DNA of 22,408 nt from Candidatus Wukongarchaeum yapensis (GTDB taxonomy: Archaea > Asgardarchaeota > Wukongarchaeia > Wukongarchaeales > Wukongarchaeaceae). Location: contig JAEOSI010000011.1 in assembly GCA_016840425.1 (NCBI GenBank), positions 1 to 22,408 of the forward strand, written 5' to 3'. The position numbers and the translations under genes are program-made. The stretch's first letter is position 1. Each line of letters opens with the position of its first letter. Under the pieces are notes generated by a model that searched no databases, was not told the DNA's origin, and saw nothing but the letters and a program-made list of their open reading frames with translations. This document shows, one piece after another, positions 2,785 to 22,408 of this stretch.

Positions 2785-3039
2785 ACGATAAAACGTGTAA
2801 TCGGCGGAATCATGATGTTATTCGGCGGAATCATGCTGTTCTGGGGGCTGCTATTTGCTTCCCTCATGGAAGACCTAATCGGCGGAATCATGATGTTATT
2901 CGGCGAAATCATGCCGTTCTGGGGACTGCTATTTGATTCCCTCATGGAAAACCCTCTGGCATACATCATTTTCTGGACAGTTATATTCGGTGTTGGTGTG
3001 TGGTTATGGGAAACAAGCAAACCAGAAAAGGGAAGGTAA
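2785..3039 (+). CDS. Small integral membrane protein with an internal duplication (start uncertain: ACG 2785 after SD, or ATG 2812)
   Basis: Hydrophobic Gly/Met/Leu-rich helices. GGAGG at 2773-2777 is 7 nt before the in-frame ACG. Confidence 0.55.
2798..2953. repeat. 78-bp tandem duplication (5 mismatches) with a nested 21-bp repeat
   Basis: 2798-2875 versus 2876-2953. Each unit begins with two 21-bp copies of (A/T)TCGGCG(G/A)AATCATG... Confidence 0.9.
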
Positions 3040-5979: not shown

Positions 5980-6087
5980 TGGGCGAGCCCGGATTCGAAC
6001 CGGGGACCTCCACTTTACGCGTTTTCAAACTTAGTATGCAAGATGTCTCGTAAGGGTGGCATCATAACCGAACTAGACTACTCGCCC
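5980..6087 (-). tRNA. tRNA-Val(UAC) with a 33-nt intron at non-canonical position 39/40 (intron 6014-6046)
   Basis: Acceptor stem GGGCGAG/CTCGCCC, anticodon TAC at 6052-6050, T-loop TTCGAAT. Removing 6014-6046 restores the CCACC/GGTGG stem. The BHB central helix is TACG/CGTA. Confidence 0.9.
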
Positions 6088-6166
6088 CTGTCATTAGTTT
6101 TTCCAATTTCTTAATTGATAAAAATATTATAAAACTTGTTTAGTTTTTAGTTTTTTTTAAATTTTT

Positions 6167-6760
6167 TTAATTATGTTTTTTTATTTTCTGTCCGATTAGG
6201 TCATCTTTTTCATCATTATTAAATAGTCCGAATTCTTTTAAAAAAATTAGTTGTTTTTCGACGATTTCTCTGCTGTTTTTTGTTTTTGAATAGGTTTCAA
6301 GGAAAACTTTATTTTGTGTTAGAAAATTTGGTCCCCATTTGAATATGGATAGAAGGTCTTTGGCTTGGTTTTTTGCCCCTAAAATGAAGAGTGTAGCAGC
6401 TATTGCTTCCGCAGTGCTTAGTTTGAAAGGTTTGCCGTAATTTATCGGATTAACCGCGATTAGGAAAGGTAGGGCTCTGCTTTCTTTTTTTAGAAAATTT
6501 AGAAGGATTTTACTTTCATTCCAGGAACAATCTATTCCAATTATCCCGCTTTTTAGGGCTCTTTCTTGATCCTCTGGTGAAAGGGCTTTTTCTGCAAAGG
6601 GATTTAATATGATTCCTTTTTTCGGGATGATTTTCTTTTTGGTTATAATTTTTGCTTTCTTATGTTTTACTAATTTTAGAGCAGTACATTTTTTGGGATC
6701 ACACTGGGAAATACGATAAATCAAAATTTTGTATTCCTCTAATTGCTGCTGCTTTTTCAG
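6167..6760 (-). CDS. tsr3: 16S/18S rRNA aminocarboxypropyltransferase Tsr3 (DUF367)
   Basis: CDPKKCTALKL, GIDCSW, RALPFLIAVNPINYGKPFKLSTAEA and FKWGPNF motifs. The start is uncertain: TTG 6724 in the track, or CTG 6760 after GGAGG. Confidence 0.92.
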   Translation of the reverse strand: MKKQQQLEEYKILIYRISQCDPKKCTALKLVKHKKAKIITKKKIIPKKGIILNPFAEKALSPEDQERALKSGIIGIDCSWNESKILLNFLKKESRALPFLIAVNPINYGKPFKLSTAEAIAATLFILGAKNQAKDLLSIFKWGPNFLTQNKVFLETYSKTKNSREIVEKQLIFLKEFGLFNNDEKDDLIGQKIKKHN

Positions 6761-6811
6761 AAGTTTTTGCCTCCCCTTGTCATTTATTAAAAAGTTAATT
6801 TAGGGGCTTTA

Positions 6812-7366
6812 TTATTTTTTTGAGAATATGTAGACACCGTCCATGAACACTCTGAAATCTTTTCTGAGTTTGCCTCGGAGCCTAGTGCATTGTTGGATGT
6901 TTGCAGCTGTTTGCGCCACATCTTCTTTATTTATTCCTTCGACTATTACATCGTCTCCTTCTACTCTAACTGTTGTTTTTTCTCCTTGAACTTTTGCTAT
7001 ACGAGGTGCGCGTTCACCGATATAGTTTTTAATTAGAACTTCTTTTCCTTTAGGTTCTACGGTAAGGGGGAAATGGCTGTATACTATTTTTAATCTGTAT
7101 TCAAATCCTTCTGTTACTCCTTTTACCATGTTTTTTATATGGGCAATATACGTGCCTACTCTTGCTTTCTCTTTTTTTCTAACAAGACCAGCTAAAACCG
7201 TTATTTTGTTATTCTCTTTTAAAATTTGGATCTGAGAGTCTGAAAAATCCCTTTGAACTTCGCCTCTTGGGCCGTTTACTATTACTTTTTGTCCCTCTAC
7301 TATGACTTCTATGTTTTCTGGTAGTTCTACTACTTGTTCTATCACTGCTATGCGCGGCATTTTCAA
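6812..7366 (-). CDS. rpl6: 50S ribosomal protein uL6
   Basis: V.VNGPRGEV.RDF, IKNMVKGVTEGFEYRLKIVYSHFP, NYIGER.PR and KDFRVFMDGVYI motifs. Confidence 0.97.
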   Translation of the reverse strand: MKMPRIAVIEQVVELPENIEVIVEGQKVIVNGPRGEVQRDFSDSQIQILKENNKITVLAGLVRKKEKARVGTYIAHIKNMVKGVTEGFEYRLKIVYSHFPLTVEPKGKEVLIKNYIGERAPRIAKVQGEKTTVRVEGDDVIVEGINKEDVAQTAANIQQCTRLRGKLRKDFRVFMDGVYIFSKK

Positions 7367-7417
7367 GCCCTCATAATTTATTTTTTTAATTTTTAAAGAT
7401 TTTAAAATTTACATGTG

Positions 7418-7810
7418 TTAATATACGTAAGCTAAGAGCATGCCTCCAATATCCTTTTCTTTGGCTTCTATATGGGTCAATATTCCTTGAGACGTACTTA
7501 CTATAAGAAAGCCAAAATTCCTTGCAGGTAACCATCTTTGTTCATACTTTTCAAAAACGTCTTTTTTTACGGGGAATCGAGGTTTTATTACCCCACATTT
7601 ATTTATCCTCCCCAAAAGTTGCACTTTAAAAACTCCTGCCCGTCCGTCATCAATAAATTCAAACTCGCCTATAATACCTTGTCTTTGAAAAACCCTTAAA
7701 ACTTCGGCTATTAACTTCGAAGCTGGACGAATGATAACTTCTTTTTTACCTACAACTTCATGATTGTAGATAGTGCTAAGCGCGTCAGCAAGCGGATCTA
7801 GTCTAGTCAT
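7418..7810 (-). CDS. rps8: 30S ribosomal protein uS8
   Basis: [14 protein letters not shown]-like [30 protein letters not shown] and LIVSTSQG motifs. The homologue-like start is ATG 7810. Confidence 0.97.
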
Positions 7811-7923
7811 TATTGAAGCCTCCAAAAATTAAATCGCTTTAAAATAAAATTAAGCCGAGTTCATAAATCTTTTCTTTTTCCAAAATTATTTAATTTCGCC
7901 ACAGCAATAAACTCTTATATTTT

Positions 7924-8290
7924 ATGGCTGGGTATCCAGAGTAGCCCCTCTTCTGTTCCGCGGGGCCTTTCGCCTGAAGGCGGCAGACATCCCGCTCAGC
8001 AACATTCAACTAAGCGCCTTACCCGGCCCTCATAGACATTCATTGGAGCCCTATTTAGGCTTGCTCCGCGGCGTTAGGCCGTTTCAACGCTCCTTCACGC
8101 TTCCTCAACGGTAAGAGACTAATAAGCGCCATATCATCGTCATTTGGCGTGAAGACGTCTCGTTTCTGCTCCTAGAGCCGGGTTCTCACCCGGTGACTTA
8201 CGCCACGCCACTTGCCTAGGGAGGAGGGAGCTTCCTCAAGACATGCAGATCGATACATGTCCCGAAAGTCACCCTTGGACTCCCAGCCAT
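7924..8290 (-). ncRNA. rnpB: RNase P RNA (archaeal, type A-like)
   Basis: Terminal P1 ATGGCTGGG/CCCAGCCAT; CR-I GAGGAAGCTCCCTC pairs with CR-V ACAGAAGAGGGGCTAC; GCAGAAAC and GAAACGGC conserved blocks; GGTAA in the L15 region; TATA-like TTAAAATATA about 21-30 nt upstream. Confidence 0.92.
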
Positions 8291-8448
8291 CAATTAATAT
8301 AAAGAAAGGGTATATTTTAATTTTTGCCCTTTTTCAGTTTGTAATGATAGGCTTACCCCCACATACTTAATCCCCCCCTGAATTTAGGGGGTTTTATATT
8401 AGCGTTTTTATAAAAAGGTTTTTTAAAATACTTTTAGTTATTTTTTAG

Positions 8449-8505
8449 ACGGATAAAAACAAAGGAGATTTTATTTATATGGACAAAACAAAGGAGATTT
8501 TATTT
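8449..8505 (+). repeat. Imperfect 29-bp-period duplication of the start of the following ORF (21-bp identical core)
   Basis: AAAACAAAGGAGATTTTATTT occurs at 8456-8476 and 8485-8505. Confidence 0.85.
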
Positions 8506-9114
8506 GATGAGAAGATAAAGGCATGCTTTAAAGATGTTTTAAACATCTCTGATGATTTAATTATAACTTTTAGAGAAGAGATTGATAGGGACAGACAGAA
8601 AAAAGTAGAAGATATTGTAAAAAAGGTTATGTTTTCACCTCATTTGGATCTAAAAATGAATTGGGAAAAAAAAGGGTTAGTTATAGGGGATATAGAACGA
8701 GTAATTAAGAAGGGGAGAGAGAAGTTAGACAGTGAAAGTAAAAAGGAGCTTTTTCGATTTTTTCAAAAAATAAATGAAACCGTTAAAATTGATAAAATAA
8801 AGGTAAAAGTTACTGTTTCTGATGAATGGATAGAGGAATGGATAAATAGTGGGGGAAAAACCTATAGTGAAGCAAAAATTAAGCTTGGACATAAGGAAAG
8901 CCCCTTAAAAGAATCAATTCAAGAATTTTTAAGAAAATGGAGCCTAGAAAAAGAAATAATAGCACCAGAAATAGCGGAAGAAAGAATAATAGAAATTAAA
9001 AAAGGAAAAGGTGACTTAGATAAAGAAAATTGGATAAATATAATAAAAAAACTTGGCAAAAAAACACCAATAAAAGAAATAACCATTGGAATAATCATAA
9101 ACGACGAGAATTAA
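8479..9114 (+). CDS. Hypothetical Lys/Glu/Ile-rich protein (211 aa)
   Basis: Long ORF with host-like purine-rich coding strand and AAGGAG upstream. No motif recognised. Confidence 0.7.
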   Translation: MDKTKEILFDEKIKACFKDVLNISDDLIITFREEIDRDRQKKVEDIVKKVMFSPHLDLKMNWEKKGLVIGDIERVIKKGREKLDSESKKELFRFFQKINETVKIDKIKVKVTVSDEWIEEWINSGGKTYSEAKIKLGHKESPLKESIQEFLRKWSLEKEIIAPEIAEERIIEIKKGKGDLDKENWINIIKKLGKKTPIKEITIGIIINDEN

Positions 9115-9136
9115 AAAAACTAAATTTTAGTTATAA

Positions 9137-9182
9137 AGGCCTCATAAACTTCGTGAAAACTTTAGCGGCTAAGATACTTAAG

Positions 9183-9190
<8 letters not shown>
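9137..9190 (-). other. 3' arm of the pre-23S processing stem with BHB
   Basis: Pairs with 12244-12298. Central helix CGCT (9167-9164), AAA bulge (9163-9161). Confidence 0.88.
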
Positions 9191-12243
<3,053 letters not shown>

Positions 12244-12252
<9 letters not shown>

Positions 12253-12298
12253 CTATAATAGTATCTCAGCTATCGCCGTTTTTTGGTTTATGAGGCCT
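12244..12298 (-). other. 5' arm of the pre-23S processing stem with BHB
   Basis: Complementary to 9137-9190. Central helix GGCG (12277-12274), ATA bulge (12273-12271). Confidence 0.88.
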
Positions 12299-12440
12299 AT
12301 GCATGATCTTCATCGCTTTAGGTCAAAATGATCGGTAAATTTGGTTTAGTTTTGGCCTAATTTGCTGGATCCTTCAACCAAGAGGTAGAATCCTCTTGAT
12401 TTGCATCGAGAGAAAATCTTTGCATTTTAGTGGTTTCTTA

Positions 12441-12455
12441 ATATTTTTTATAATT
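12441..12455 (-). promoter_or_regulatory. Candidate TATA box for the stand-alone 23S gene
   Basis: The minus strand reads AATTATAAAAAATAT about 150 nt upstream of the processing stem. The region is AT-rich, so this is weak evidence. Confidence 0.35.
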
Positions 12456-12712
12456 TAGTAGGTTGTAGGATTTTGTTTTTCCGCATTTTTATTGATCTCA
12501 TATCAGTATAATAAATCTTACGCTATTATATTCTTGTTTAGTTTTTAGGTTATTTTGGTGAGGTTTTTCTATAATCATGTCTATTTTTAAGGTTTTCGTT
12601 TTGTGAAGTTTGTAGGAAATTTCTAATCTTTTAATTTTCTAAAAGGAGGTATGTTGTAATGGTTTGAAAGAGGTAGGCGGTTAAATATGGTTTTAAGTAA
12701 TTTAAGTTTGAA

Positions 12713-14173
12713 TTGAAAGTTATTTTTAAAGGGGAAATGTTAAACATGTTTTTTAGAAGTATATTCCGGGGTAAGGATGTTTTTAGTGTGAAGAGTGGGA
12801 AAACGTCGGGAGATTGTGTTGTCTTTTTTGGGGAGAGGGTTAATTTATTTTTAGGGGTTTTGGAGATTAGTTGTAACAAGGAGAAGGGCATTTGGTCTTC
12901 TTTTAGAGAGGAGGGGCATATTAATCTGGAGGGAGAATTGTTTCCTTTGTTGAGTTCTTTTGTTAAAGACTGTTCTTTAGAGTTTAGGAGGGGAAAAGGT
13001 GTTCGAATTTTTATTTATGAACGTAAAAATTTGATAGGGGATTTAGAAGGAGATATAAGGGTTTTTGAAGAGACCTTTAAAAAAATAAAGGAAAAGATCG
13101 GGGAGAATTGGGGGGTTATGTTTGATGTTAAGGTTGTTGATCCTGAAGGTTTTTTGAGGGAGATCCAAGAAAGTATTCCTGAAGAGATAACAAGTTGGGA
13201 GAAGGATTCTGATAAAAGTTTATACATAAAAGCAAAAGATGGGGGATATTACATAGGATGTAGTTATTTTAATGAAAAGAGTTTTAGTGAGTCTTTTGCG
13301 GAAGAAATAGAAAGGATAATGGCTTTTAAGGGATTGGATCTAAGTTTTATATTGAATGTGGAGGGGAAACATTATTCTTCCTATTTATTTTTAAGATCTA
13401 GGAACTCTTTGAAATTTTTAATAAAAGATTTATGGGGGAAAAAAAGTAACGGTTTAGAGGTTATAAGTGGTTTTTTGGGAGTGAAGGGACTGCTTGAGAA
13501 TTTTGGCAGGATTATTTTAAGGCGGGGAATACCAAAGGGCAGAAAAAGATTTCTTAGCGAATTTTCGGGTTTAGAAGAACTTTTTAATAGTTGTATAATT
13601 AGGATCAATGATGAAAAAAATGATTTTTCAAGTATAAGAAATAAAGTGGAGGGAGAATGGTGTTTTTATTGTACCTATCCTGAAGGGGCTTGTAATAACG
13701 TTAAAAAATATGTTGAAGAAAAACTAGAAAAAATGGACGAAAAAAGGATAATGGAATCAATTGAAATGCTTAAAAAAGGAGAGGTTGAAAGATTTTGTAC
13801 ATTTATGAATATAAAGTTGCGAAGTTTACCTTGCTTTTTTAGGGCGATTATGAAATTTTTAAAAGAAAAAAAAACGCTGATAGATCAGGCGCAGGAATTG
13901 GAAAAAATTTTATCTCTCAATGTCGAGGAAGAGTGTAACTATTGCACCGTTCCCGAAAAAGAATGTAAATATGTGAAAAATTGGGTATATACGATCATTA
14001 AAAAAGCAAAAACTTCACTAATCGAAAAGATTAGGAGGGGATTTGAAAAAGACGAAGAAATAGGGTTAAAACTATTATTTAAAAATCTTAAGATACCCCA
14101 TGAATACTTGCCTTGCGCAAGAAGAACAATAAGATATATTCTCACACAAAATAAAAAGAAGTCACAAAATTAG
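12713..14173 (+). CDS. Hypothetical protein (486 aa) with two C-terminal CxxC-x6-C...LPC repeats (putative metal or Fe-S binding)
   Basis: C317/C320/C327/C374 and C408/C411/C418/C468. The N-terminal part is not recognised and the start is uncertain (TTG 12713, ATG 12737 or ATG 12746). Confidence 0.75.
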   Translation: MKVIFKGEMLNMFFRSIFRGKDVFSVKSGKTSGDCVVFFGERVNLFLGVLEISCNKEKGIWSSFREEGHINLEGELFPLLSSFVKDCSLEFRRGKGVRIFIYERKNLIGDLEGDIRVFEETFKKIKEKIGENWGVMFDVKVVDPEGFLREIQESIPEEITSWEKDSDKSLYIKAKDGGYYIGCSYFNEKSFSESFAEEIERIMAFKGLDLSFILNVEGKHYSSYLFLRSRNSLKFLIKDLWGKKSNGLEVISGFLGVKGLLENFGRIILRRGIPKGRKRFLSEFSGLEELFNSCIIRINDEKNDFSSIRNKVEGEWCFYCTYPEGACNNVKKYVEEKLEKMDEKRIMESIEMLKKGEVERFCTFMNIKLRSLPCFFRAIMKFLKEKKTLIDQAQELEKILSLNVEEECNYCTVPEKECKYVKNWVYTIIKKAKTSLIEKIRRGFEKDEEIGLKLLFKNLKIPHEYLPCARRTIRYILTQNKKKSQN

Positions 14174-14307
14174 AAAAAATAACCATTAGGTGAACTTTAA
14201 TAGCGAAAAAATTTATAAAAAATACCTTAGGATAAATAATTCTAATGGAAATATAGACAAATTTGCGAGGTTTAATTGAGGGAAAAAGGAAAAGATTGTT
14301 ACTATAT

Positions 14308-14407
14308 GGCCTGGATGGGGTAGTGGTATCCTGAGGGACTGTGGATCCCTTGACGCGGGATGGAACATAGGAAATGCTCCACGCGATTTCAATTCCCGCT
14401 CCGGGCC
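14308..14407 (+). tRNA. tRNA-His(GUG) with encoded G-1 and a 28-nt intron at 53/54 (14360-14387)
   Basis: 8-bp acceptor stem GGCCTGGA/TCCGGGCC, anticodon GTG at 14341-14343, stem AGGGA/TCCCT. Strict BHB: TTGA/TCAA, CGCG/CGCG, TGGA/TCCA. Confidence 0.93.
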
Positions 14408-14558
14408 TATACCAAATTAATTCAAGCGGAATCTCAGATCGTTTTAAAAAAATGTTGATTTTAGATTGTAAAAATACTAGAGTTCGATAAGAGTTTAAAA
14501 TATCTCAAAGAAATATAAAAGGTGAAAAATACTAGAAAAGTAATGCTAATCTTTAACG

Positions 14559-14565
14559 TTTAATA
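14559..14565 (+). promoter_or_regulatory. TATA box of tRNA-Glu
   Basis: TTTAATA ends 26 nt before G1 (14591). Confidence 0.5.
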
Positions 14566-14590
14566 CATACTTAATTCAAACGTTAATGTT

Positions 14591-14708
14591 GCCGCGGTAG
14601 TGTAGCCAGACGATTTCGGGTTAAGTCAAGCATAGGAGGCTCTCGACCTTCTGACGGGGGTTCGAAGCAAGAACTAACTAAAAAGCGAAAATCCCCCCCG
14701 CGGCACCA
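14591..14708 (+). tRNA. tRNA-Glu(CUC) with two non-canonical introns: 18/19 (14610-14624, 15 nt) and 59/60 (14667-14691, 25 nt); CCA encoded
   Basis: Acceptor stem GCCGCGG/CCGCGGC, anticodon stem GGAGG/CCTTC around CTCTCGA. BHB central helices AGCC/GGTT and TTCG/CGAA. Confidence 0.9.
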
Positions 14709-14877
14709 AACTTTATTCATTTCTAAGCATAAATCATGAAGAAATAACTAAATAATTTTGAACACTTATTATTCATCCTCGATTTACAGTCAAAGACGTA
14801 TTCCGATACAAGATAGGGGGGGATATAAATGTTTCAAAGTGATTTTATTATGAAAAAATATTGAAAGGGAAAAGAAA

Positions 14878-15051
14878 ATGTTTAAAAGAAAAATTAGAGG
14901 AAAAAGGGGTTCACCTCTTTTAGAGGAAGGTATACTATTAGGACTTTCACTTTTCATGTTTTTAATAATTGCTTCAATGGTTTTGGGTATTCTAGATTGG
15001 AGTTCAAACAATTTTGATGAAGCACTAGACGCCATTAGTGACCTTGACTAA
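14878..15051 (+). CDS. 57-aa Flp-like prepilin (class III signal peptide; not in ORF track)
   Basis: Hand translation gives MFKRKIRGKRG/SPLLEEGILLGLSLFMFLIIASMVLGILDWSSNNFDEALDAISDLD*. It has a basic leader, a Gly cleavage site, Glu at +5 and a 22-aa hydrophobic helix. SD-like GAAAGGGA lies upstream. Confidence 0.8.
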   Translation: MFKRKIRGKRGSPLLEEGILLGLSLFMFLIIASMVLGILDWSSNNFDEALDAISDLD

Positions 15052-15072
15052 TCGGATTAAGAGTTTAAAAAA

Positions 15073-15207
15073 TGGTGCGGGGGATGGGATTCGAACCCAC
15101 GCAGGTTTATGCGGTTTTATTACAACTCTACACCACAGGATTCGATCGCTAAACGATGTTTAACGTGCCTCAGTCCTGCTCCTTTGGCCTGGCTCGGACA
15201 CCCCCGC
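15073..15207 (-). tRNA. tRNA-Leu(GAG) with two introns: 26 nt in the anticodon loop (15142-15167 if 37/38) and 21 nt in the variable arm (15107-15127); CCA encoded
   Basis: Acceptor stem GCGGGGG/TCCCCCGC region, anticodon GAG at 15171-15169, stem CAGGA/TCCTG. Splicing restores the variable arm GGT-GTAG-ACC. T-loop TTCGAAT. Confidence 0.88.
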
Positions 15208-15645
15208 TGCTGGAAAACGCCCCCAGAAGCCTCTACGAGCCATTTTAGAGGGGTTGATCCTTTGAGGGTGCTTTCTTCAAATCGTAGACCTTTGAAGGTA
15301 GAAAATCCTTCATCGTTTATAAAGTCTACGACAGCGCATAGCAGCTGTTTGCGCCTACTGCTACGATTCTCACGTAGTTCTTCAGCGTTTTTGAGAGCCA
15401 AACATATTAGTAAATCTTCTTCTTTTTGAGTATTCCATAAAAGCCAAACTTTTTATCCCTAAGCTACAAAGAGTTAATAGAATTGTATTTTGGATAACGA
15501 TTTACACCATGACCTAAAAAACTTCCAAAAGCAGAATCCTCAAAAAGAACATTTACTAAAGCAATCTAGGGGCTTTATTTTATAGAAGAGAAAGTTTTTT
15601 GAAGAAGTTTCTTTTTTAGATAGTTTTACACTGGAGGTAAAAATT

Positions 15646-16362
15646 GTGGTTAAAATTAAGTTAATAGAAGAGGGCTCCTTAGAAAGATGCACGCTCATAA
15701 CAGGTTTTCACGGGTTGGGACAAGTTGGCTATATTGCTGTGCGGCATATCGTAAAAGTTCTTTCGCCTAAAAGAATAGGGGTTATACTTACGAAAAATTT
15801 ACCTCCGTTTATAACCGTTGAAAATGGGAAAATTATTCTTCCCTTTGAGGTTTATAAAAAGGATAAGTTCATCATAGTTTTACCACACATACAACCTTAC
15901 AGAAGAAACATGACCTCTTTTATGAAAGGTTTAGTTAAATGGGCAATTATGAGTAAAATAGAGCAAGCAGTTCTAATTGGAGGGGTTGATAACCAGTTAA
16001 AAAGATCGTTAGAAGAGGTCTGTTGCGTTTTAACCGAGACATTTAAGAACAATAAAGGAGACCTGAAGCTACCTTATTTGAATGATTGGCTTTTTGTAGC
16101 AGGTCCTCTAGCTTTAATGCTTGGATTTTCAGAGATTTACAAATTCCCAGCCGCAGCCATTTTAGCCTTTGCAGAAAGATACAGACCAGATCCAAAGGCG
16201 GCTGCCGCAGTTATAGAAACAATAAATAGGCTTTTTGGGCTTAAAGTAAATACTACAGAGCTAGTTGAGGAAGCTGAAAAAATAGAACAGGAAATAGAAA
16301 CGTCTTTAAAACAGTATAAGATACAAGAATTAGAAGAAGGGTCACGAGGGATGTATATTTAA
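15646..16362 (+). CDS. PAC2-family proteasome assembly chaperone
   Basis: LITGFHGLGQVGYIA, LIGG, AGPLALML and PDPKAAA motifs and a C-terminal MYI (HbYX-like) tail. GTG start after GGAGGT. Confidence 0.88.
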   Translation: MVKIKLIEEGSLERCTLITGFHGLGQVGYIAVRHIVKVLSPKRIGVILTKNLPPFITVENGKIILPFEVYKKDKFIIVLPHIQPYRRNMTSFMKGLVKWAIMSKIEQAVLIGGVDNQLKRSLEEVCCVLTETFKNNKGDLKLPYLNDWLFVAGPLALMLGFSEIYKFPAAAILAFAERYRPDPKAAAAVIETINRLFGLKVNTTELVEEAEKIEQEIETSLKQYKIQELEEGSRGMYI

Positions 16363-16793
16363 GTTTCTTCTTTTTTAGACATTTCAACAAAACGCTCAAA
16401 AGCCTGACGAATTCTATCCGCAGTTGGTCCTGTCCCTTCAACGCCTTGAGAAGTAACTTTCACCCGGCCAAGTACCGTTATTAATCCTGGATCCTCATAA
16501 AATTTAACTTCGCCTAAAGGAAACATTTTTTCAAGTTCTTGAGCTAAACCTTTGAGGTCAAAAGGTTTTTCGCTTAAAACTATTTCAGCTACTATTTTAC
16601 CACTAAGGACTACCCGTGGAAGCACATTCCCCTCATTATCTTTAGCATCGTCTAAACAAACGCTTAGGGAATCAGGGTGATAACCTTTTAAAAATCCTAA
16701 AAATGATTTGCCATTAACTGTTATAACTTTAACATATTTACCGAGCAAAAAAGCAAGTGCTTTATAAAACTCTCTCGCACGAACATTGGCCAT
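16359..16793 (-). CDS. Sm-like protein with C-terminal domain (SmAP3 type)
   Basis: N-terminal Sm fold (LLGKYVKVITVNGKSFLGFLKGY...SVCLDDA...VVLSGKIVAEI) plus a C-terminal extension (LAQELEKMFP..VKFYED.G.ITV...VKVT..GVEGTGP.ADRI). Confidence 0.8.
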   Translation of the reverse strand: MANVRAREFYKALAFLLGKYVKVITVNGKSFLGFLKGYHPDSLSVCLDDAKDNEGNVLPRVVLSGKIVAEIVLSEKPFDLKGLAQELEKMFPLGEVKFYEDPGLITVLGRVKVTSQGVEGTGPTADRIRQAFERFVEMSKKEET

Positions 16794-17013
16794 AGAAAAA
16801 CCCTACCATCCTTTAAAGGATTTTAATCATACACTTTCTATTCTTAACTTTTACTATTTAAAATAGTGTATATTTTCCTTAAAATTTTCTCAAAAACCTT
16901 AAAGACCATTCAAAAAAACTTTAAAAAGATTTTGAAAAAAAACGCTTGAAAAAGCTATATTGATGAAAAAACTCTGAAATCCGATATAAATCCAATTTTT
17001 TAATCTTGAAGTT

Positions 17014-17037
17014 GAAGAAGAAGAAGAAGAAGAAGAA
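17014..17037. repeat. (GAA)8 microsatellite in the divergent intergenic region
   Basis: Eight perfect GAA units followed by TAG. In that frame a TAA at 16987 is reached with no start codon in between. Confidence 0.9.
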
Positions 17038-17189
17038 TAGTTACGTTTATCTCCCTCATTGTAGGGTTATTGTTTCCTACATACGCGAAATATGTTCTAA
17101 TTTATTGAAAAAGAGAAGGATATAAAGAGGTTTATTATTTTTAAAAATTACTTTATTGGTTTTTTGCTTTTTGTTTAAATTGATGATTT

Positions 17190-18203
17190 ATGAGATCAAT
17201 ATACTTCAATCAAAATGTTTGTCCTGAGTGTTCAGGATTTCTAGTTACAACAGAGTATAATATTGTTTGTGTGGCGTGCGGTCTCGAAGTTTCTAGGATT
17301 ATAAGCGATCCTACATATTGTATAGAATCAGAAAACAGACAAGGAAACTATTATACATTTCCAGGAGCAAGAGCATATTTAGCCGATGGTTTAGGCACAG
17401 ATATAGACCGTTATAAAACAAATAGATTTAGAGATTTTCGAGGTCGAATTCTTTCAGAAAAAAAACAAAATAAGTTTAAAAGGTTAAGGATAATACATCA
17501 AAGAGTCGGAAGATTTGGTGAAAGAGAGAGAAATTTTCACGCTTTATGCTTGATAAACAGGATTTCTGCCCTTTTAAATCTTCCAAAAAACGTAAGAAAC
17601 AGGGCAGGATACTACTATAAAAAAATTTCAAAAATTATAAGAAAAAATGATAAAGAGAAAAAAAGAAGAAGAAATTCAGTAAAGATCGCGGCATTTTGTA
17701 TATTAGCAGCGGTTAAAGAAGACCCTAAAATAATACCTATTCGTTTAGTAGAGATCCTTAGATGTTTCAAAAAAGCAGGCTACAACATTAAGGGATCAGA
17801 TTTAACAGAATTGAGACTTTATCCAGAAATTACAAAAATTATAAAGATCAAAGCAAGAAAGAGCGAAGATTATATCGACAGGATCATCGATTCAACATTA
17901 GCTTCAAAAAAGGTGCAAAATCAGGTTGAAAAGAAAAAAATAGATACTTTGGAATATAAACAAGCACTTTTGAGCGTTTGTAAAAAGATTTTAGAAAAAA
18001 CACCAGCTCAAAAAAGGGGAGGAAGGGACCCCTATATAATGGCCGCAGCGGCTGTTTATGCAGCAGATAAATACATTTCTAAAATCCATCAAGCAGGAGC
18101 CATATTAACCCAAAGGCTTCTTGCTGAGATAACAGATGTTGCAGAATATAGTATAAGAGAACACTATCTAAAGGTGTTAAAAGCACATGTATACAAAAAA
18201 TGA
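17190..18203 (+). CDS. Divergent transcription factor B (TFB/TFIIB) paralogue
   Basis: Zn ribbon CPEC..CVAC. First cyclin fold (LINRISALLNLPKNVRNRAGYYYKKI). Second cyclin fold and HTH (GRDPYIMAAAAVY...LTQRLLAEITDVAEYSIREHY). Confidence 0.85.
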   Translation: MRSIYFNQNVCPECSGFLVTTEYNIVCVACGLEVSRIISDPTYCIESENRQGNYYTFPGARAYLADGLGTDIDRYKTNRFRDFRGRILSEKKQNKFKRLRIIHQRVGRFGERERNFHALCLINRISALLNLPKNVRNRAGYYYKKISKIIRKNDKEKKRRRNSVKIAAFCILAAVKEDPKIIPIRLVEILRCFKKAGYNIKGSDLTELRLYPEITKIIKIKARKSEDYIDRIIDSTLASKKVQNQVEKKKIDTLEYKQALLSVCKKILEKTPAQKRGGRDPYIMAAAAVYAADKYISKIHQAGAILTQRLLAEITDVAEYSIREHYLKVLKAHVYKK

Positions 18204-19797
18204 AACGGTAAAAATTGAAGAGAAAAGTTGTGAAGAGTTAATCATAGACGATTATAGAGTTGGAATTTTTTTCATAAAGATCTTTGATACTTATCCAGAG
18301 GCAACATATCAAGCAACGCCCTTAATATGTGAGGAAACTGCTAAAATAATGAAAAAAATCGCTAAAACAGTAGTTACAACCACTAAGCTACAGGATAGAA
18401 TATACAAATTAAATGAACTTCTCGAAATAATAAAAAAAGAAGCAACTATCTTATGGAAAAAATTAACTTATAAAAGACCATATATTTTTAGAGATGAGGA
18501 TTTAGAAGAAATATTGCTTCTAACCGCCTATCAAGTTATTGGTATGGCAGAGTTAACACCCCTACTTATGGACAGGTGGGTAAACGAGATATACCTGGAT
18601 AATCCTAAAACGCCGATATATATAGATCATTTAAAATGGGGGAGGTGCAAAACCAAGACATATTTAACAAGGGGGGAGATAGAGAAAATAGTGACAAGGA
18701 TAAGGATAGAGAACGATTTAGTGCTAAAATATACAAATCCTTCAATAAAAGGAGAGCTTGTCACAAAGAATTTTCATGCCCGTGTAACAATAGACGCCCC
18801 ACCTCTTGCCATTGATGGATTCCATATAGATATAAGAAAGTTAAGAAAAAAACCTTATACACTTCCAGAGTTAATAGCAAATAAAACATGTACATTAGAA
18901 GCTGCGGCATACATATATTACTGCCTTATTAATCGATGTAACATAACGGTTATAGGGGAACCGGGAGCTGGAAAAACGACAATGATAAACGCTTTAGATC
19001 TTTTAACCCCGCATATCTGGAGAAAAATAGTCATAGAAGACGCCATTGAAAGTATACCACAAACAGAGTATGGATTTCATCAACTACGTTTAAAATGTGG
19101 AAAACAAGATCTAGAGGAAAAAAATGGAAATGAGATCTATAATGAAAAGAGTAGAGAGATAGCAAAGCTTTTGCATCGCAGCCCTGACTGGGTATATCTT
19201 GGAGAAATATTATATCCAGAAGATGCAAGAGCTATGTTTCACGCTTTATCAGCAGGATTAAAAGGTCTTCAAACATGCCACGGAGAAACACCAGAAAACG
19301 TGATAATAAGATGGGTAATACACCATAAAATACCAGCCGTAGCCCTCCAACCTTTAGACTTAATTCTTCACATGAAAAAAATCGTTGAAAAAAGAGAAAT
19401 AAAAAGAAAACTTGTCCAAATATGCGAAATAAAAGACGTTATAGACATTAATAGGCAGGAGAATGGAGAAAAATTAGAGGAAAACGAAAAAACAGGGAGA
19501 AATCAAGAAAGAGGAGAAAAAATCATAGAACTACCAGATCAAAAAGTTGTTCTAGTAGACACTTTTCAATATTCTCCTAAAACAAACCAAGCAGAAAGAG
19601 TAATAAAAAATTTGTTCATGACACCCACTTTAGAAAAGATAAAAAGGTACAGTTATGTAAAAGAAGAAAGGTTTAAAGAAACGTTACAAAAGCTTGAAAA
19701 AACACTGAAAAACCTTACACTAACAAAAACATTTAACATAAAACAAGTGAAAAACAGCCTTCTAAACACAATCGGAGAAGGAAAAGAAATATCTTGA
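18187..19797 (+). CDS. Type II/IV secretion (TadA/CpaF/VirB11-like) ATPase
   Basis: Walker A GEPGAGKTT, Asp box IEDAIE, Walker B RSPDWVYLGEI, His-box-like QTCHG, and IDIRK and NEIYLD motifs. Confidence 0.92.
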   Translation: MYTKNETVKIEEKSCEELIIDDYRVGIFFIKIFDTYPEATYQATPLICEETAKIMKKIAKTVVTTTKLQDRIYKLNELLEIIKKEATILWKKLTYKRPYIFRDEDLEEILLLTAYQVIGMAELTPLLMDRWVNEIYLDNPKTPIYIDHLKWGRCKTKTYLTRGEIEKIVTRIRIENDLVLKYTNPSIKGELVTKNFHARVTIDAPPLAIDGFHIDIRKLRKKPYTLPELIANKTCTLEAAAYIYYCLINRCNITVIGEPGAGKTTMINALDLLTPHIWRKIVIEDAIESIPQTEYGFHQLRLKCGKQDLEEKNGNEIYNEKSREIAKLLHRSPDWVYLGEILYPEDARAMFHALSAGLKGLQTCHGETPENVIIRWVIHHKIPAVALQPLDLILHMKKIVEKREIKRKLVQICEIKDVIDINRQENGEKLEENEKTGRNQERGEKIIELPDQKVVLVDTFQYSPKTNQAERVIKNLFMTPTLEKIKRYSYVKEERFKETLQKLEKTLKNLTLTKTFNIKQVKNSLLNTIGEGKEIS

Positions 19798-19849
19798 TTG
19801 AAAGAAGGAGGGAAAAACCTCGACAACAAAAAATATAAACGGATTTTTT

Positions 19850-20695
19850 GTGAAAATTGCTAAATTATCATGCCGGAAAAATTCTTTAAGAGAACTTTTC
19901 AGCCATATAGTAAAAAAAAGATCAAAAACCAAGCTTTTAAAGAAAATATACGAACACTACGGAATAACACAGGAAGAAGTTTTAGGCGGTAGTATAATTA
20001 TTAGCCTCCTAGTAACAGCCACGATTTTTACAATAACAACCCTTACAAATATTTTTGATTTTTCACTAGGTATAAAAGTAATTATAAGCGTTTTAATCGG
20101 AAGCATCGTCTATTATTACTTCAATGAAAAGTTTATTAGAGACTATATAAAAAAATCACACCAGATAGAGATATACGCTGATCTAATTTTAGAAGAATTT
20201 ACTGCCATATTAACCGCTACAAATTCGATAACAGAAGCCATAACATACATAGCACAAGAAAACTATTCAGAAATTTCAAAAGCATTTAGAGAAATATTAA
20301 AACAGATAAATTACGGAAACCCACCCGAACTACTACTTTTAGAATATATCGAAAAAGGACAACCTTCCCAAACCCTAAGAGAAAACCTAACCACCATAAT
20401 ACAACTATACCAAACTAATAAAGAAGAAAAAACAGAAGAAACACTAAACCAATTATCAAAATACTATTCATGGAACGTCCAAAATAAATACATAGAAGAG
20501 ACCCAAAATCTAATGGCAAAAACCACTGCAACAATAACGTTCCTCACATTTTTCCCCATAACATACGCGATAATATCTATTTTAGGGGGGCATACTTCAG
20601 ATTTTTTTATCATAGCTCTCCCTTTTTTACAATTAACAATAGCAATGCTTGCCTATAAAAAAATCTTAACCAGCCAAATAGAACTAATAGAATAA
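19850..20695 (+). CDS. TadB/T2SS-F-like inner-membrane platform protein (N-terminal half)
   Basis: Two N-terminal TMs, a cytoplasmic T2SSF-like domain (NSITEAITYIA...ISKAFREILKQINYGNP) and two C-terminal TMs. Follows the ATPase gene. Confidence 0.78.
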   Translation: MKIAKLSCRKNSLRELFSHIVKKRSKTKLLKKIYEHYGITQEEVLGGSIIISLLVTATIFTITTLTNIFDFSLGIKVIISVLIGSIVYYYFNEKFIRDYIKKSHQIEIYADLILEEFTAILTATNSITEAITYIAQENYSEISKAFREILKQINYGNPPELLLLEYIEKGQPSQTLRENLTTIIQLYQTNKEEKTEETLNQLSKYYSWNVQNKYIEETQNLMAKTTATITFLTFFPITYAIISILGGHTSDFFIIALPFLQLTIAMLAYKKILTSQIELIE

Positions 20696-20783
20696 ACATT
20701 TAGACCGTTTAAAGGGGGTAAAACCATTTTATAAGCTCTTTAATAAAAAAGAAAAAACGTCGATAAACATATCGCAATATCTT

Positions 20784-21446
20784 ATGTTTTTAGGAACAGA
20801 GCTTGTAAAAGGAAAAAGCGTAGAACATGCACTATATGCAGCAATAAAAAAACACGGAGGAAAAAATAAGGAAATCCTCGAGAAAATAGCACAATATATC
20901 CAGTTAGGGATGCCTTTTGAAAGAATCATGGAAAAAACAATAAAAACAAAAGAAAAAGAAGAAGACGAAATAAACGGTCTAGACGAGAACACAAAAAAAG
21001 TATTAGAAATAACACAAAAAATAATAAAAAACAACCCAAAAAAAGCAGGAGAAACACTCATCCGCCTGTCGACAAAAATTGACGAAAATAAAAAACACAG
21101 AAAACGCCGAGAAACCATGATAAAAGCAGAAAAAACAAAAGCAACAATAACCATCTTCATAATCTTCGCAATCATGGGGCTCTTAGCAGGAATAACACCC
21201 CTCCTAACACTTGCCACAACCATAACAAAAACAAACCCACAAAACTACAGAACGATTGTAACCCAAACAGTAATCCAACAAAACCACATAACCACCCTAA
21301 CCCTCCTCATAACAACAATAATAACAGCACACTACACAGGAAAAATCACCATGACAGAAAAAACATGGAAAAACATACTCATCGGAACACTACTATTCCT
21401 AATAATATACCAAATAACAACCATAACAATAGCAAAAACACCCTAA
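20784..21446 (+). CDS. TadC/T2SS-F-like platform protein (the frame is open from 20691; possibly the C-terminal half of a fused gene)
   Basis: GKSVEHAL...ILEKIAQYIQLGMPFE T2SSF-like segment followed by three hydrophobic helices. Confidence 0.72.
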   Translation: MFLGTELVKGKSVEHALYAAIKKHGGKNKEILEKIAQYIQLGMPFERIMEKTIKTKEKEEDEINGLDENTKKVLEITQKIIKNNPKKAGETLIRLSTKIDENKKHRKRRETMIKAEKTKATITIFIIFAIMGLLAGITPLLTLATTITKTNPQNYRTIVTQTVIQQNHITTLTLLITTIITAHYTGKITMTEKTWKNILIGTLLFLIIYQITTITIAKTP

Positions 21447-21474
21447 AAAAGAAGAAAACAAGAGAGATTTATGA

Positions 21475-21579
21475 CGCCGGGGGTGGGATTCGAACCCACG
21501 CGACGCAAAGCGTCAGCAGGTAACCCGAAACCAAATCTATTACCTCAGAATAGGCATAAAATCAAGCACTCGAGCCTAC
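21475..21579 (-). tRNA. 5'-truncated tRNA-Ser(CGA) (positions 27-73 only) with a 47-nt intron at 37/38 (21522-21568)
   Basis: GTAGG-CTCGAG-[intron]-A-CCTGC, long variable arm GACGC/GCGTC, T-arm GTGGG-TTCGAAT-CCCAC, 3' acceptor strand CCCCGGC-G73. BHB helix CTCG/CGGG. No GCCGGGG or D-arm upstream. Confidence 0.8.
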
Positions 21580-21659: not shown

Positions 21660-22408
21660 CTACTCGATCCAAGACCTGTACTCCTTCGCCTGATCGTGTA
21701 ACCCCATCTTCTCACAAAGCTTCGCCCCCTCCTCGTAAAGCTCATTCGCCCTCTTCTGATCACCTAACTCCTCATAACACAACCCCGTGTTAATGAAGCA
21801 TTCGGATATACCACTTTTGTCCCCCAACTCCTCGAAGATCTTCAGAGCTCGCTGGAAGTACTCCAAAGCATCACCATAATCACCCTGATCATAAAAGATG
21901 GCGCCCATATTATTGAGGCAGAGGGACACACCACTCTTGTCCCCCAACTCCCCGAAGATCTTCAGAGCTCGCTGGAAGTGCTCTAAAGCCCTTTCATAAT
22001 CACCCTGATCATAAAAGATGAGGCCCATATTATTGAGGCAGAGGGATATGCCACTCTTGTCCTCCAACTCCTCAGCCATCTTCATAACTCTCTGAAAGTA
22101 CTCTAAAGCCCTTTCATAATCACCCTGATCATAAAAGATGAGGCCCATATTATTGAGGCAGAGGAATATGCCACCCTTGTCCCCCAACTCCCCGAAGATC
22201 TTCAGAGCTCGCTGGTAGTACTCCAAAGCATCCCCATAATCACCTTGAGCAGAGAAGGTGGCACTCATGCCGATGAGGGAGTTGGATATCCCGCCCTTGT
22301 CCCTCAACTCCTCGAAGATCTTCAGAGCTCGCTGGAAGTACTCCAAAGCATCACCATAATCACCCTGATCATAAAAGATGGCGCCCATATTATTGAGGCA
22401 GAGGGACA
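21660..22408 (-). CDS. Tetratricopeptide-repeat protein (40-aa repeats), 5'-incomplete
   Basis: Repeating unit NNMGLIFYDQGDYERALEYFQRALKIFEELGDKSGISLCL. The frame stays open to the window edge. Confidence 0.9.
   Translation of the reverse strand, partial: SLCLNNMGAIFYDQGDYGDALEYFQRALKIFEELRDKGGISNSLIGMSATFSAQGDYGDALEYYQRALKIFGELGDKGGIFLCLNNMGLIFYDQGDYERALEYFQRVMKMAEELEDKSGISLCLNNMGLIFYDQGDYERALEHFQRALKIFGELGDKSGVSLCLNNMGAIFYDQGDYGDALEYFQRALKIFEELGDKSGISECFINTGLCYEELGDQKRANELYEEGAKLCEKMGLHDQAKEYRSWIE
21781..22408. repeat. 120-bp tandem repeat array encoding the TPR units
   Basis: The units align at a 120-bp period. 21825-21928 is identical to 22305-22408, and 21981-22044 is identical to 22101-22164. 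Confidence 0.92.

What the first reader, a model, noticed from the sequence alone, without database searches (positions are those of the whole stretch)
5980..21579. Every tRNA locus in the window is intron-split: seven introns in five genes, at least five non-canonical
Val 39/40; His 53/54; Glu 18/19 and 59/60; Leu anticodon loop and variable arm; Ser 37/38. This density is known from Thermoproteales and a few other lineages with relaxed-specificity endonucleases. Here it occurs in a genome with Asgard-like features, where I am not aware of it being described. tRNA introns have been proposed to block integration by mobile elements, and one of these loci may itself be an att site. Standard pipelines would probably miss or call these tRNAs pseudogenes.
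Basis: partly seen in the sequence, partly recalled or inferred. Interest (0 to 1): 0.72.

Follow-up and report, generated by a model that had tools for sequence, protein, structure and literature searches.

The report
Intron-split tRNA genes, Asgard archaeon
Four tRNA genes and one truncated tRNA copy on this contig of an Asgard archaeon carry seven short, enzyme-spliced introns, mostly at unusual positions. The inserts are real, but heavy tRNA interruption is already published for Asgard archaea.

Summary
Removing them gives canonical tRNAs. At every boundary set by the cloverleaf, the 4-bp central helix of the bulge-helix-bulge (BHB) splicing motif is intact.

Two corrections:
- The 'Ser' locus is not a gene. 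It is a 5'-truncated copy (positions 27-73) of a full tRNA-Ser(CGA) gene that lies about 1 kb away, beyond a TPR gene.
- The Leu anticodon-loop insert is 26 nt, but its BHB accounts for only 21 nt.

The trait is genome-wide. 30 of 32 tRNA genes with defined ends are 92-151 nt long, and the genus mate and order mate show the same. The genome encodes a catalytic EndA alpha subunit with the broad-specificity loop, and RtcB.

The genome is an Asgard MAG, Heimdall/Hod-related by SecY. This scan had also already noted multi-intron tRNAs on other contigs of this genome.

No RNA evidence could be obtained. Verdict: a real, ordinary instance of a known kind, with two small unexplained details.

The parts
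5980..6087 (-). tRNA-Val(UAC) gene, 108 nt; the mature tRNA is 75 nt
   Evidence: Rfam RF00005 48.8 bits. ARAGORN -i calls Val(tac) with an intron after position 39. The spliced product is called Val(tac). The G001 orthologue is 93% identical.
6014..6046 (-). Val intron, 33 nt, between positions 39 and 40 (anticodon stem, non-canonical)
   Evidence: Central BHB helix UACG/CGUA 4/4, with weak flanks (h 0, h' 1). In G001 the inner helix is 6 bp. 5 of 33 intron bases differ, against one substitution and a 2-nt D-loop indel in the 75 exon bases.
14308..14407 (+). tRNA-His(GUG) gene with encoded G-1 (14308)
   Evidence: Rfam 42.1 bits. G-1 opposite C73 read from the sequence. The spliced product is called His(gtg).
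14360..14387 (+). His intron, 28 nt, between positions 53 and 54 (T stem/T loop junction)
   Evidence: Perfect hBHBh' motif (H 4, h 4, h' 4). It is the best of 3825 boundary pairs in the gene.
14591..14708 (+). tRNA-Glu(CUC) gene (to the discriminator at 14705) with encoded CCA (14706-14708)
   Evidence: Missed by Rfam and ARAGORN; read by hand. The spliced product is called Glu(ctc).
14610..14624 (+). Glu intron 1, 15 nt, between G18 and G19 (D loop)
   Evidence: H 4/4 (AGCC/GGUU), inner helix 2 bp with a tetraloop, no outer helix. Glu(UUC) carries a 31-nt intron at the same site with the same ends and a 5-bp inner helix, on C120 and in G001.
14667..14691 (+). Glu intron 2, 25 nt, between positions 59 and 60 (T loop)
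   Evidence: H 4, h 5, h' 1; only 2 of 4625 boundary pairs score as well. Glu(UUC) has a 43-nt intron at the same site.
15073..15207 (-). tRNA-Leu(GAG) gene (15076-15207) with encoded CCA (15073-15075)
   Evidence: Rfam 38.1 bits. The product after removing 26 + 21 nt is called Leu(gag), 85 nt. The other four Leu isoacceptors are on C268, C70, C89 and C189.
15142..15167 (-). Leu anticodon-loop insert, 26 nt, between G37 and A38. The canonical BHB covers only 15147-15167 (21 nt).
   Evidence: The 21-nt piece scores H 4, h 2, h' 3 (2 of 5425 pairs as good). The 26-nt boundary scores H 0. ARAGORN rejects the product that keeps the extra 5 nt. G001 has the same 5 nt.
15107..15127 (-). Leu variable-arm intron, 21 nt, directly after the GUAG loop of the variable arm
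   Evidence: H 4/4, with 1-bp flanks. The spliced arm matches the intron-free arms of Leu(UAG) and Leu(CAG). Leu(CAA) and Leu(UAA) carry an intron at the same site.
21475..21579 (-). 5'-truncated copy of tRNA-Ser(CGA) (positions 27-73), not a gene on its own
   Evidence: No acceptor 5' strand or D arm upstream. Matches positions 27-73 plus the trailer of the full gene at C137:19818-19946. Three other assemblies show the order full gene, TPR gene, truncated copy. G001 has the same layout.
21522..21568 (-). Intron of the truncated Ser copy, 47 nt, at the canonical position 37/38
   Evidence: H 4, h 5, h' 1. It is 79% identical to the 45-nt intron of the full gene, while the exon parts are identical apart from a 1-nt deletion private to this assembly.
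7930..8284 (-). RNase P RNA (context: the enzyme RNA that trims tRNA 5' leaders)
   Evidence: Rfam RF00373 184.6 bits.

Best explanation
These are ordinary, functional archaeal tRNA genes interrupted by bulge-helix-bulge (BHB) introns.

Proposed mechanism:
1. Each gene is transcribed as a precursor.
2. Each insert pairs with the neighbouring exon to form a 4-bp helix flanked by two 3-nt bulges.
3. The splicing endonuclease EndA cuts both bulges. Here it is most likely an (alpha-beta)2 heterotetramer whose catalytic alpha subunit carries the Crenarchaea-specific (L1) loop, which lets it accept relaxed motifs outside the anticodon loop.
4. RtcB, with archease, joins the exons.

Near-total interruption of tRNA genes is a trait of this whole genome and of its genus and order within the Asgard archaea. 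It is the phenomenon already published for other Asgard lineages.

The fifth locus is a truncated duplicate of a nearby tRNA-Ser gene, left by an old insertion or duplication event. It is not an independent gene.

Shown: the inserts, their positions, the restored cloverleaves, the BHB geometry, the enzyme genes and the conservation in relatives. Inferred: that splicing happens, which enzyme does it, and the exact 3' cut in tRNA-Leu.
For: 1. Removing the inserts gives canonical tRNAs with the expected anticodons.
2. 7 of 7 cloverleaf-defined boundaries have a complete central helix in the cutting register, against about 2% of arbitrary pairs. His, Glu 59/60, Leu (21 nt) and Ser rank first or near first among thousands of pairs in their genes.
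3. Between species, exons are conserved and introns diverge while the helices are kept: Val inner helix 6 bp in G001; Glu D-loop intron 15 versus 31 nt with the same ends; Ser central helix G:C to G:U.
4. No intron-free copy of any of the five is in the assembly, which is 92% complete. All five Leu isoacceptors are present once each, and all are interrupted.
5. Genome-wide, 23 of 25 Rfam tRNA hits with E <= 1e-5 (24 of 26 with E <= 0.01) and 30 of 32 genes with defined ends are 92-151 nt long, with a mean excess of 39 nt. G001 and G002 are similar.
6. EndA alpha (C113:735-1346) matches the A. pernix alpha subunit 3P1Z_B at E 1.7e-49. The Tyr-His-Lys catalytic residues are in place, and K58 aligns with the loop lysine K44.
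7. A second, non-catalytic paralogue is present in 26 of 30 relatives, including the genus mate.
8. RtcB is on C137, with archease next to it in sister assemblies.
9. The literature describes the same trait in Asgard.
Against:
- The beta subunit was not found in this assembly.
- The Val and Leu variable-arm introns have the central helix but almost no flanking helices in this genome.
- For the Leu anticodon insert, the canonical BHB would leave 5 extra bases, so either the 3' cut is non-canonical or the product is unusual.
- The BHB counts use my own simple scorer, not SPLITS or tRNAscan-SE.
Confidence: 0.86

Rival explanations
1. The interrupted loci are decaying pseudogenes, and functional intron-free copies lie elsewhere, perhaps in the unassembled 8% of the genome.
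For: The assembly is fragmented: 277 contigs, 92% complete. One locus (Ser) really is a truncated copy. The Leu insert does not fit a clean BHB.
Against: - The mature sequences find no full-length intron-free match in the assembly.
- Exons are conserved against G001 while introns diverge.
- 30 of 32 tRNA genes are interrupted, so nearly the whole set would have to be pseudogenes.
- Each Leu isoacceptor occurs once.
Confidence: 0.03
2. The inserts are assembly or binning artefacts (chimeric contigs, misjoins).
For: It is a metagenome-assembled genome of short contigs.
Against: - Three independent assemblies (one NCBI, one ENA and one JGI contig) match the stretch they share with window 14646-15260 exactly or with one base changed. 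Together these cover the Leu gene and the 3' part of Glu.
- A fourth assembly (JGI) covers Leu exactly.
- A different species (G001) has orthologous interrupted Val, Leu and Ser genes, and its Glu(UUC) gene carries introns at the same two sites as Glu(CUC) here.
Confidence: 0.01
3. The Ser fragment is the far end (attR-like) of a mobile element that integrated into tRNA-Ser(CGA). The window therefore holds a true att site.
For: - There is a direct repeat of tRNA positions 27-73 plus about 20 nt of trailer on both sides of a 1-kb insert.
- A second tRNA, Met(CAU) on C259, has a 101-nt direct repeat 749 bp apart, with a compensatory T-stem difference, as expected if one copy came from an incoming element.
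Against: - The insert holds only a TPR gene and no integrase or other mobility gene.
- The layout is the same in all sister assemblies and in a second species, so it is old and fixed.
- The repeat's exon parts have not decayed.
Confidence: 0.35
4. The truncated Ser copy is a maintained functional element, for example a processing signal at the 3' end of the TPR mRNA or a spare 3' exon block. It is not a relic.
For: - The exon-like parts are 59/59 identical in the full and truncated copies of both species.
- The intron is 74-81% identical and the trailer 69-75%.
- The BHB central helix is kept in all four copies, with a G:C to G:U change.
Against: - Gene conversion limited to the identical exon blocks would give the same pattern.
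- No 5' half or complementary leader exists elsewhere in the genome.
- A BHB that would join position 26 of the full gene to the fragment has a central helix but no flanking helices.
Confidence: 0.2

Closest known systems
Multi-intron tRNA genes of Asgard archaea (Atabeyarchaeia and Freyarchaeia, Valentin-Alvarado et al. 2024, PMC11291895; census of 90 Asgard genomes, bioRxiv 10.64898/2026.10.13.758758)
   Same: - Nearly every tRNA gene is interrupted.
- Introns are short, about 15-50 nt.
- Many sit at non-canonical positions: D arm, T arm, variable region, anticodon stem.
- Several occur per gene, with BHB motifs at the boundaries.
- D-arm introns are missed by software.
- EndA alpha and beta paralogues are present.
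   Different: - This genome belongs to another lineage, Heimdall/Hod-related by SecY, in a small GTDB class of its own. The preprint's text names Jordiarchaeia and Atabeyarchaeia as the heavy classes and says several Heimdallarchaeia carry fewer than one insert per gene.
- I could not check whether this assembly is in their panel.
- My rough load here is about 1.5 introns per gene (6 in 4 genes; mean excess 39 nt per gene), against 2.2 in their focal families.
Multi-intron tRNA genes of Thermoproteales (Sugahara et al. 2008, as cited in PMC11291895)
   Same: High intron density, non-canonical positions, relaxed BHB motifs, and an (alpha-beta)2 EndA with the Crenarchaea-specific loop.
   Different: A different phylum. 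According to the preprint, Thermoproteales introns form families that are shared between different tRNA types, while Asgard introns mostly do not. Here only the two Glu isoacceptors share intron ends.
Aeropyrum pernix (alpha-beta)2 splicing endonuclease, catalytic alpha subunit (PDB 3P1Z and 3AJV, chain B)
   Same: - The alignment is gap-free over 176 residues at E 1.7e-49.
- The catalytic Tyr, His and Lys are in place.
- The Crenarchaea-specific loop is present, with its lysine (K44 there, K58 here).
   Different: - The partner beta subunit is not in this assembly and is seen only in the genus mate and other relatives.
- There is a 26-residue acidic and basic N-terminal extension.
- No biochemistry has been done.
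Partial tRNA duplicates at the ends of elements integrated into tRNA genes (attL/attR)
   Same: The truncated Ser copy is a direct repeat of the 3' part of the tRNA gene plus its trailer, on the far side of an insert.
   Different: - There is no integrase in the 1-kb insert.
- The repeat is long, about 125 nt, and includes the intron.
- It is conserved across two species, with its exon parts undecayed.
Split tRNA genes of Nanoarchaeum equitans and Caldivirga maquilingensis
   Same: A free-standing 3' piece of a tRNA that begins inside the body of the molecule.
   Different: No separate 5' piece and no complementary leader or trailer were found. A complete gene for the same tRNA lies 1 kb away.

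Membership tests
Archaeal BHB (tRNA-type) introns | The insert interrupts an otherwise canonical tRNA, and removing it restores the cloverleaf | tested here: met
   ARAGORN in default mode calls Val(tac), His(gtg), Glu(ctc), Leu(gag) and Ser(cga) on the spliced sequences and calls none of them on the unspliced window.
Archaeal BHB (tRNA-type) introns | Both exon-intron boundaries lie in 3-nt bulges separated by a 4-bp helix, with at least one flanking helix | tested here: inconclusive
   The central helix is 4/4 at all seven cloverleaf-defined boundaries. A flanking helix of 2 bp or more is present for His, Glu 18/19, Glu 59/60, Leu (21-nt piece) and Ser. Val and the Leu variable-arm intron have only 1-bp flanks. 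The 3' boundary of the 26-nt Leu insert does not fit (H 0).
Archaeal BHB (tRNA-type) introns | The splicing endonuclease and the RtcB ligase are encoded in the genome | tested here: met
   PF01974 and PF02778 on C113. PF01139 RtcB on C137:14480-15787. Archease is beside RtcB in sister assemblies.
Archaeal BHB (tRNA-type) introns | The intron is removed from the RNA (spliced junction or circular intron observed) | not testable with these tools
(alpha-beta)2 EndA with the Crenarchaea-specific (L1) loop | Catalytic alpha subunit with the Tyr-His-Lys triad | tested here: met
   In the alignment to 3P1Z_B and to the His-to-Ala mutant 3AJV_B, the motif GPGIDH and the downstream RK align.
(alpha-beta)2 EndA with the Crenarchaea-specific (L1) loop | Loop insert in the N-terminal part of alpha with a conserved lysine | tested here: met
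   The loop region aligns gap-free with A. pernix, and K58 sits opposite K44. The match to the loop-less M. kandleri enzyme (5X89) begins only after the loop.
(alpha-beta)2 EndA with the Crenarchaea-specific (L1) loop | A separate structural beta subunit | tested here: inconclusive
   Not found in G000 by Pfam at E up to 10, nor by tblastn with the G001 paralogue. It is present in G001 and 25 other relatives of 30. The G001 paralogue is an EndA-family protein with no histidine in the stretch where alpha has its catalytic His, read by eye.
tRNA-gene att site of an integrated element | Direct repeat of the tRNA 3' part on both sides of the insert | tested here: met
   Positions 27-73 plus the trailer are repeated about 1.07 kb apart.
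tRNA-gene att site of an integrated element | An integrase or other mobility gene within the insert, and presence/absence variation among relatives | tested here: not met
   Only a TPR gene lies between the repeats. The layout is the same in three sister assemblies and in G001.
Split (trans-spliced) tRNA | A separately encoded 5' piece whose trailer pairs with the leader of the 3' piece | tested here: not met
   blastn-short of the fragment and its 60-nt upstream region against the genome finds only the full gene on C137 and unrelated T arms.

The most novel reading that the evidence does not exclude
The truncated, intron-bearing tRNA-Ser(CGA) copy behind the TPR gene is not a decaying relic but a maintained RNA element. 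Its exon-like parts are 59/59 identical to the functional gene in two species, while its intron and flanks have diverged by about a quarter, and it keeps a cuttable BHB. It could be processed by the tRNA-splicing and end-trimming enzymes to set the 3' end of the TPR transcript, or serve as a spare 3' exon block. A smaller oddity sits beside it: tRNA-Leu(GAG) needs a 3' cut 5 nt away from where its BHB predicts one.
Probability: 0.18. Interest if true: 0.55.

Novelty: new member of a known kind. Interest (0 to 1): 0.27.

Why it matters
[quoted passage not shown] It shows that simple tRNA finders miss most of them, so gene annotations and completeness checks for such genomes understate the tRNA set.

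It does not change the picture already published for Asgard archaea. Two details could be followed up with tRNA sequencing: a Leu intron whose motif and cloverleaf disagree by 5 nt, and a conserved truncated tRNA-Ser copy.

Tried and rejected
- ARAGORN on the multi-FASTA genome gave inconsistent calls (it lost the window's Val), so I ran it contig by contig.
- The search for related loci with the single SecY protein found nothing. An alignment was needed.
- Paper searches for the assembly accessions (JAEOSE, JAUQYV) found nothing.
- A search for a split-tRNA partner of the Ser fragment found none.
- A giant BHB joining position 26 of the full Ser gene to the fragment has a 4-bp central helix in both species but no flanking helix. 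I treat it as chance.
- Every other splice register for the Leu anticodon insert that gives a 7-nt GAG loop lacks the central helix. No Leu(GAG) orthologue outside the genus was found to settle this.
- The beta subunit of EndA was not found in this assembly.
- GC-rich islands outside known genes hold no further tRNA. The one at 2712-2929 is a small repeat-containing membrane ORF.
- Weak Rfam hits (mir-1422, SAM-II, snoRNAs, a plastid motif over the Ser T arm) are all far below threshold.
- I did not run a full genome census of intron numbers, because tRNAscan-SE and SPLITS were not available. The load is estimated from gene lengths only.

Full report
WHAT IS IN THE WINDOW

The window is a whole 22.4-kb contig (C123) of a 2.16-Mb metagenome-assembled genome in 277 contigs, 92% complete. 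It is archaeal. It carries a 23S rRNA (9181-12253, -), an RNase P RNA (7930-8284, -), ribosomal proteins L6 and S8, a Tsr3-like protein, PAC2, an Lsm-like protein, a TFIIB-like protein and a T2SSE/T2SSF pair.

ARAGORN in default mode finds no tRNA at all. Rfam's tRNA model finds three, 108, 99 and 132 nt long, each with a large unaligned insert.

CHECKING THE OBSERVATION

I read each locus and defined the exons from the cloverleaf, not from the splicing motif.

- Val(UAC), 5980-6087 (-): 33 nt between positions 39 and 40. ARAGORN with its intron option gives the same result.
- His(GUG), 14308-14407 (+), with an encoded G-1: 28 nt between positions 53 and 54.
- Glu(CUC), 14591-14705 (+), with an encoded CCA: 15 nt between G18 and G19, and 25 nt between positions 59 and 60. 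Both programs miss this gene.
- Leu(GAG), 15076-15207 (-), with an encoded CCA: 26 nt between G37 and A38, and 21 nt in the variable arm after its GUAG loop.
- The 'Ser' locus: 47 nt at position 37/38.

After these stretches are removed, ARAGORN in default mode calls Val(tac), His(gtg), Glu(ctc), Leu(gag) and, for the full copy on C137, Ser(cga).

I then scored every boundary for the bulge-helix-bulge (BHB) geometry: a 4-bp helix H, with both cuts after the second base of a 3-nt bulge, and outer and inner helices h and h'. All seven cloverleaf-defined boundaries have H = 4/4, whereas about 2% of arbitrary boundary pairs in the same genes do.

| Boundary | H / h / h' | Rank among pairs in the gene |
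|---|---|---|
| His 53/54 | 4 / 4 / 4 | best of 3825 |
| Glu 59/60 | 4 / 5 / 1 | 2 of 4625 as good |
| Ser 37/38 (fragment) | 4 / 5 / 1 | 4 of 4475 as good |
| Leu anticodon, first 21 nt | 4 / 2 / 3 | 2 of 5425 as good |
| Glu 18/19 | 4 / 0 / 2 | |
| Val 39/40 | 4 / 0 / 1 | |
| Leu variable arm | 4 / 1 / 1 | |

TWO CORRECTIONS

First, the Ser locus is not a gene. It starts exactly at tRNA position 27, and nothing upstream can form an acceptor stem or a D arm. It matches positions 27-73, the intron and about 20 nt of trailer of a complete tRNA-Ser(CGA) at C137:19818-19946.

The ends of C137 and C123 both run into a TPR-repeat gene with identical repeats. Three other assemblies of the same organism (ENA, JGI, NCBI GCA_030587555.2) bridge the gap. 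Their order is EF-1alpha, S10, a 169-aa ORF, full tRNA-Ser, TPR gene, truncated copy, T2SSF. The functional gene therefore lies about 1.07 kb beyond the window's end.

Second, the Leu anticodon insert does not fit. The four other Leu isoacceptors (C268, C70, C89, C189) show that the loop must read CUGAGGA, which requires removal of 26 nt. ARAGORN rejects the product that keeps the extra 5 nt. Yet the only canonical BHB cuts after 21 nt, and the 26-nt boundary has no central helix. An alternative fold puts the needed cut in a 3-nt bulge next to the anticodon stem, but without a proper central helix. The genus mate has the same 5 nt. I cannot say where the 3' cut falls.

ARE THESE REAL GENES?

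- The mature sequences have no intron-free copy in the assembly. The only full-length near match is the different isoacceptor Val(CAC).
- The Leu gene and the 3' part of Glu are identical, or differ by one base, in independent assemblies.
- In the genus mate G001, the Val orthologue differs at 5 of 33 intron bases, against one substitution and a 2-nt D-loop indel in the 75 exon bases, and its inner BHB helix is 6 bp long.
- The Leu orthologue (5' 85 nt, at a contig end) differs at three bases, all inside the 21-nt BHB intron.
- Glu(UUC), on C120 and in G001, carries introns at the same two sites as Glu(CUC), with the same intron ends but lengths of 31 and 43 nt. Its D-loop intron has a 5-bp inner helix where Glu(CUC) has 2 bp.

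This pattern of conserved exons, fast-evolving introns and preserved helices is what spliced introns show.

THE WHOLE GENOME

- 23 of 25 Rfam tRNA hits with E <= 1e-5 (24 of 26 with E <= 0.01) are longer than 90 nt.
- 30 of 32 genes whose ends I could define are 92-151 nt long, with a median of 114 and a mean excess of 39 nt. With the window's mean intron size of about 25 nt, that is roughly 1.5 introns per gene.
- Only Gly(UCC) and Val(CAC) are compact.
- G001 (same genus) and G002 (same order) look the same, and G002 has even longer inserts.
- Several other Asgard families in the sample have 35-41 Rfam tRNA hits each and supply most of the compact, top-scoring hits listed.

THE MACHINERY

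One EndA gene is present (C113:735-1346, 203 aa). Its best solved relative is the catalytic alpha subunit of the Aeropyrum pernix (alpha-beta)2 enzyme (3P1Z_B, E 1.7e-49). The alignment is gap-free through the Crenarchaea-specific loop. K58 lies opposite K44, the lysine that gives broad substrate range, and the catalytic residues align (PMC5829648).

A second, non-catalytic paralogue is present in 26 of 30 relatives, including G001, but not in this assembly. RtcB is on C137, with archease beside it in sister assemblies. The likely mechanism is the standard archaeal one. The steps that are shown and those that are inferred are listed under the best explanation.

WHO IS IT, AND IS THIS NEW?

- All the best named SecY relatives are Asgard MAGs.
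- A quick SecY tree puts the genome, on a long branch, in a clade of Heimdall- and Hod-labelled MAGs (SH-aLRT 98).
- In the coded GTDB kinship it has one genus mate and one order mate, and all other relatives sampled are only 'same phylum'.
- The same proteins occur in GCA_016840505.1 and GCA_030587555.2.
I could not verify that name.

Heavy tRNA interruption in Asgard is published:
- Valentin-Alvarado et al. 2024 found introns in 92-95% of tRNA genes of Atabeyarchaeia and Freyarchaeia, often at non-canonical positions and often multiple per gene.
- A 2026 preprint surveyed 90 Asgard genomes. It reports 2.2 inserts per gene in three focal families and 0.91 elsewhere, D-arm inserts missed by tRNAscan-SE, and BHB enrichment.
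- Kaneta et al. 2018 showed that Asgard archaea have the (alpha-beta)2 EndA with the L1 loop.

At most, this is a further lineage with a high load.

This scan had also already noted multi-intron tRNAs on other contigs of this genome. I re-checked one of them, Glu(UUC).

THE ATT-SITE IDEA

The Ser fragment has the look of an att repeat: a direct repeat of the 3' part of the tRNA across an insert. But the insert holds only the TPR gene, and the layout is identical in G001, so it is old.

Oddly, the exon-like parts are 59/59 identical in all four copies (full and truncated, in both species). The only exception is a 1-nt deletion private to this assembly. The intron is 74-81% identical and the trailer 69-75%. 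Either the fragment is under selection, or gene conversion keeps the identical blocks identical. I cannot separate these two explanations.

A second truncated copy exists for tRNA-Met(CAU) on C259: a 101-nt repeat, 749 bp apart.

VERDICT

This is an ordinary instance of a known kind, with two small unexplained details.

Noticed in passing
window 15208-15262 (-), directly upstream of tRNA-Leu(GAG): A conserved leader of about 50 nt contains a CCUCUA...UAGAGG hairpin and ends in GGCGTTTTCCAG, 2-4 nt before the tRNA start. It recurs in front of the Leu genes on C89, C189 and C268, and partly in front of tRNA-Ser on C137. No TnpB ORF lies in the 440-nt gap here.
   Followed up: partly
G000 C259:9611-9758 and 10414-10514 (locus L170:665-765 and 1414-1514): A second truncated tRNA copy: the 3' 101 nt of an interrupted tRNA-Met(CAU) gene are repeated 749 bp downstream at 96% identity. 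There is a compensatory U:A to C:G change in the T stem, and only a 63-aa ORF lies between the copies.
   Followed up: partly
window 21660-22408 (-) and C137:20034-20704: Contigs C123 and C137 are neighbours. The assembly broke inside a TPR-repeat gene whose length varies between assemblies (199, 255 and about 490 codons). RtcB and archease, the tRNA ligase and its activator, lie about 4-5 kb beyond the window's end.
   Followed up: yes
window 21475-21521 (-): The truncated Ser copy in this assembly has a 1-nt deletion in the variable-arm loop (CTTTGCG instead of CTTGTGCG). The deletion is absent from the sister assemblies and from G001.
   Followed up: partly
window 9181-12253 (-) and 7930-8284 (-): The 23S rRNA stands without a 16S or 5S gene on this contig. 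RNase P RNA (355 nt, with several insertions relative to the Rfam model) lies 900 bp downstream on the same strand.
   Followed up: no
window 14706-14708 (+) and 15073-15075 (-): Glu(CUC) and Leu(GAG) encode their 3' CCA. Val, His and Ser do not.
   Followed up: no
loci L033-L037 (SecY of relatives G007, G012, G017, G022, G027): In five Asgard relatives, SecY matches come in two or three pieces. In G007, G012, G017 and G027 the pieces lie inside one longer open frame (526-585 aa); in G022 they are spread over two contigs. This suggests in-frame insertions such as inteins.
   Followed up: no
window 2812-3039 (+): A small hydrophobic ORF (75 aa) is built from a tandem duplication ([20 protein letters not shown], twice) in a GC-rich island. 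It has no family match.
   Followed up: no
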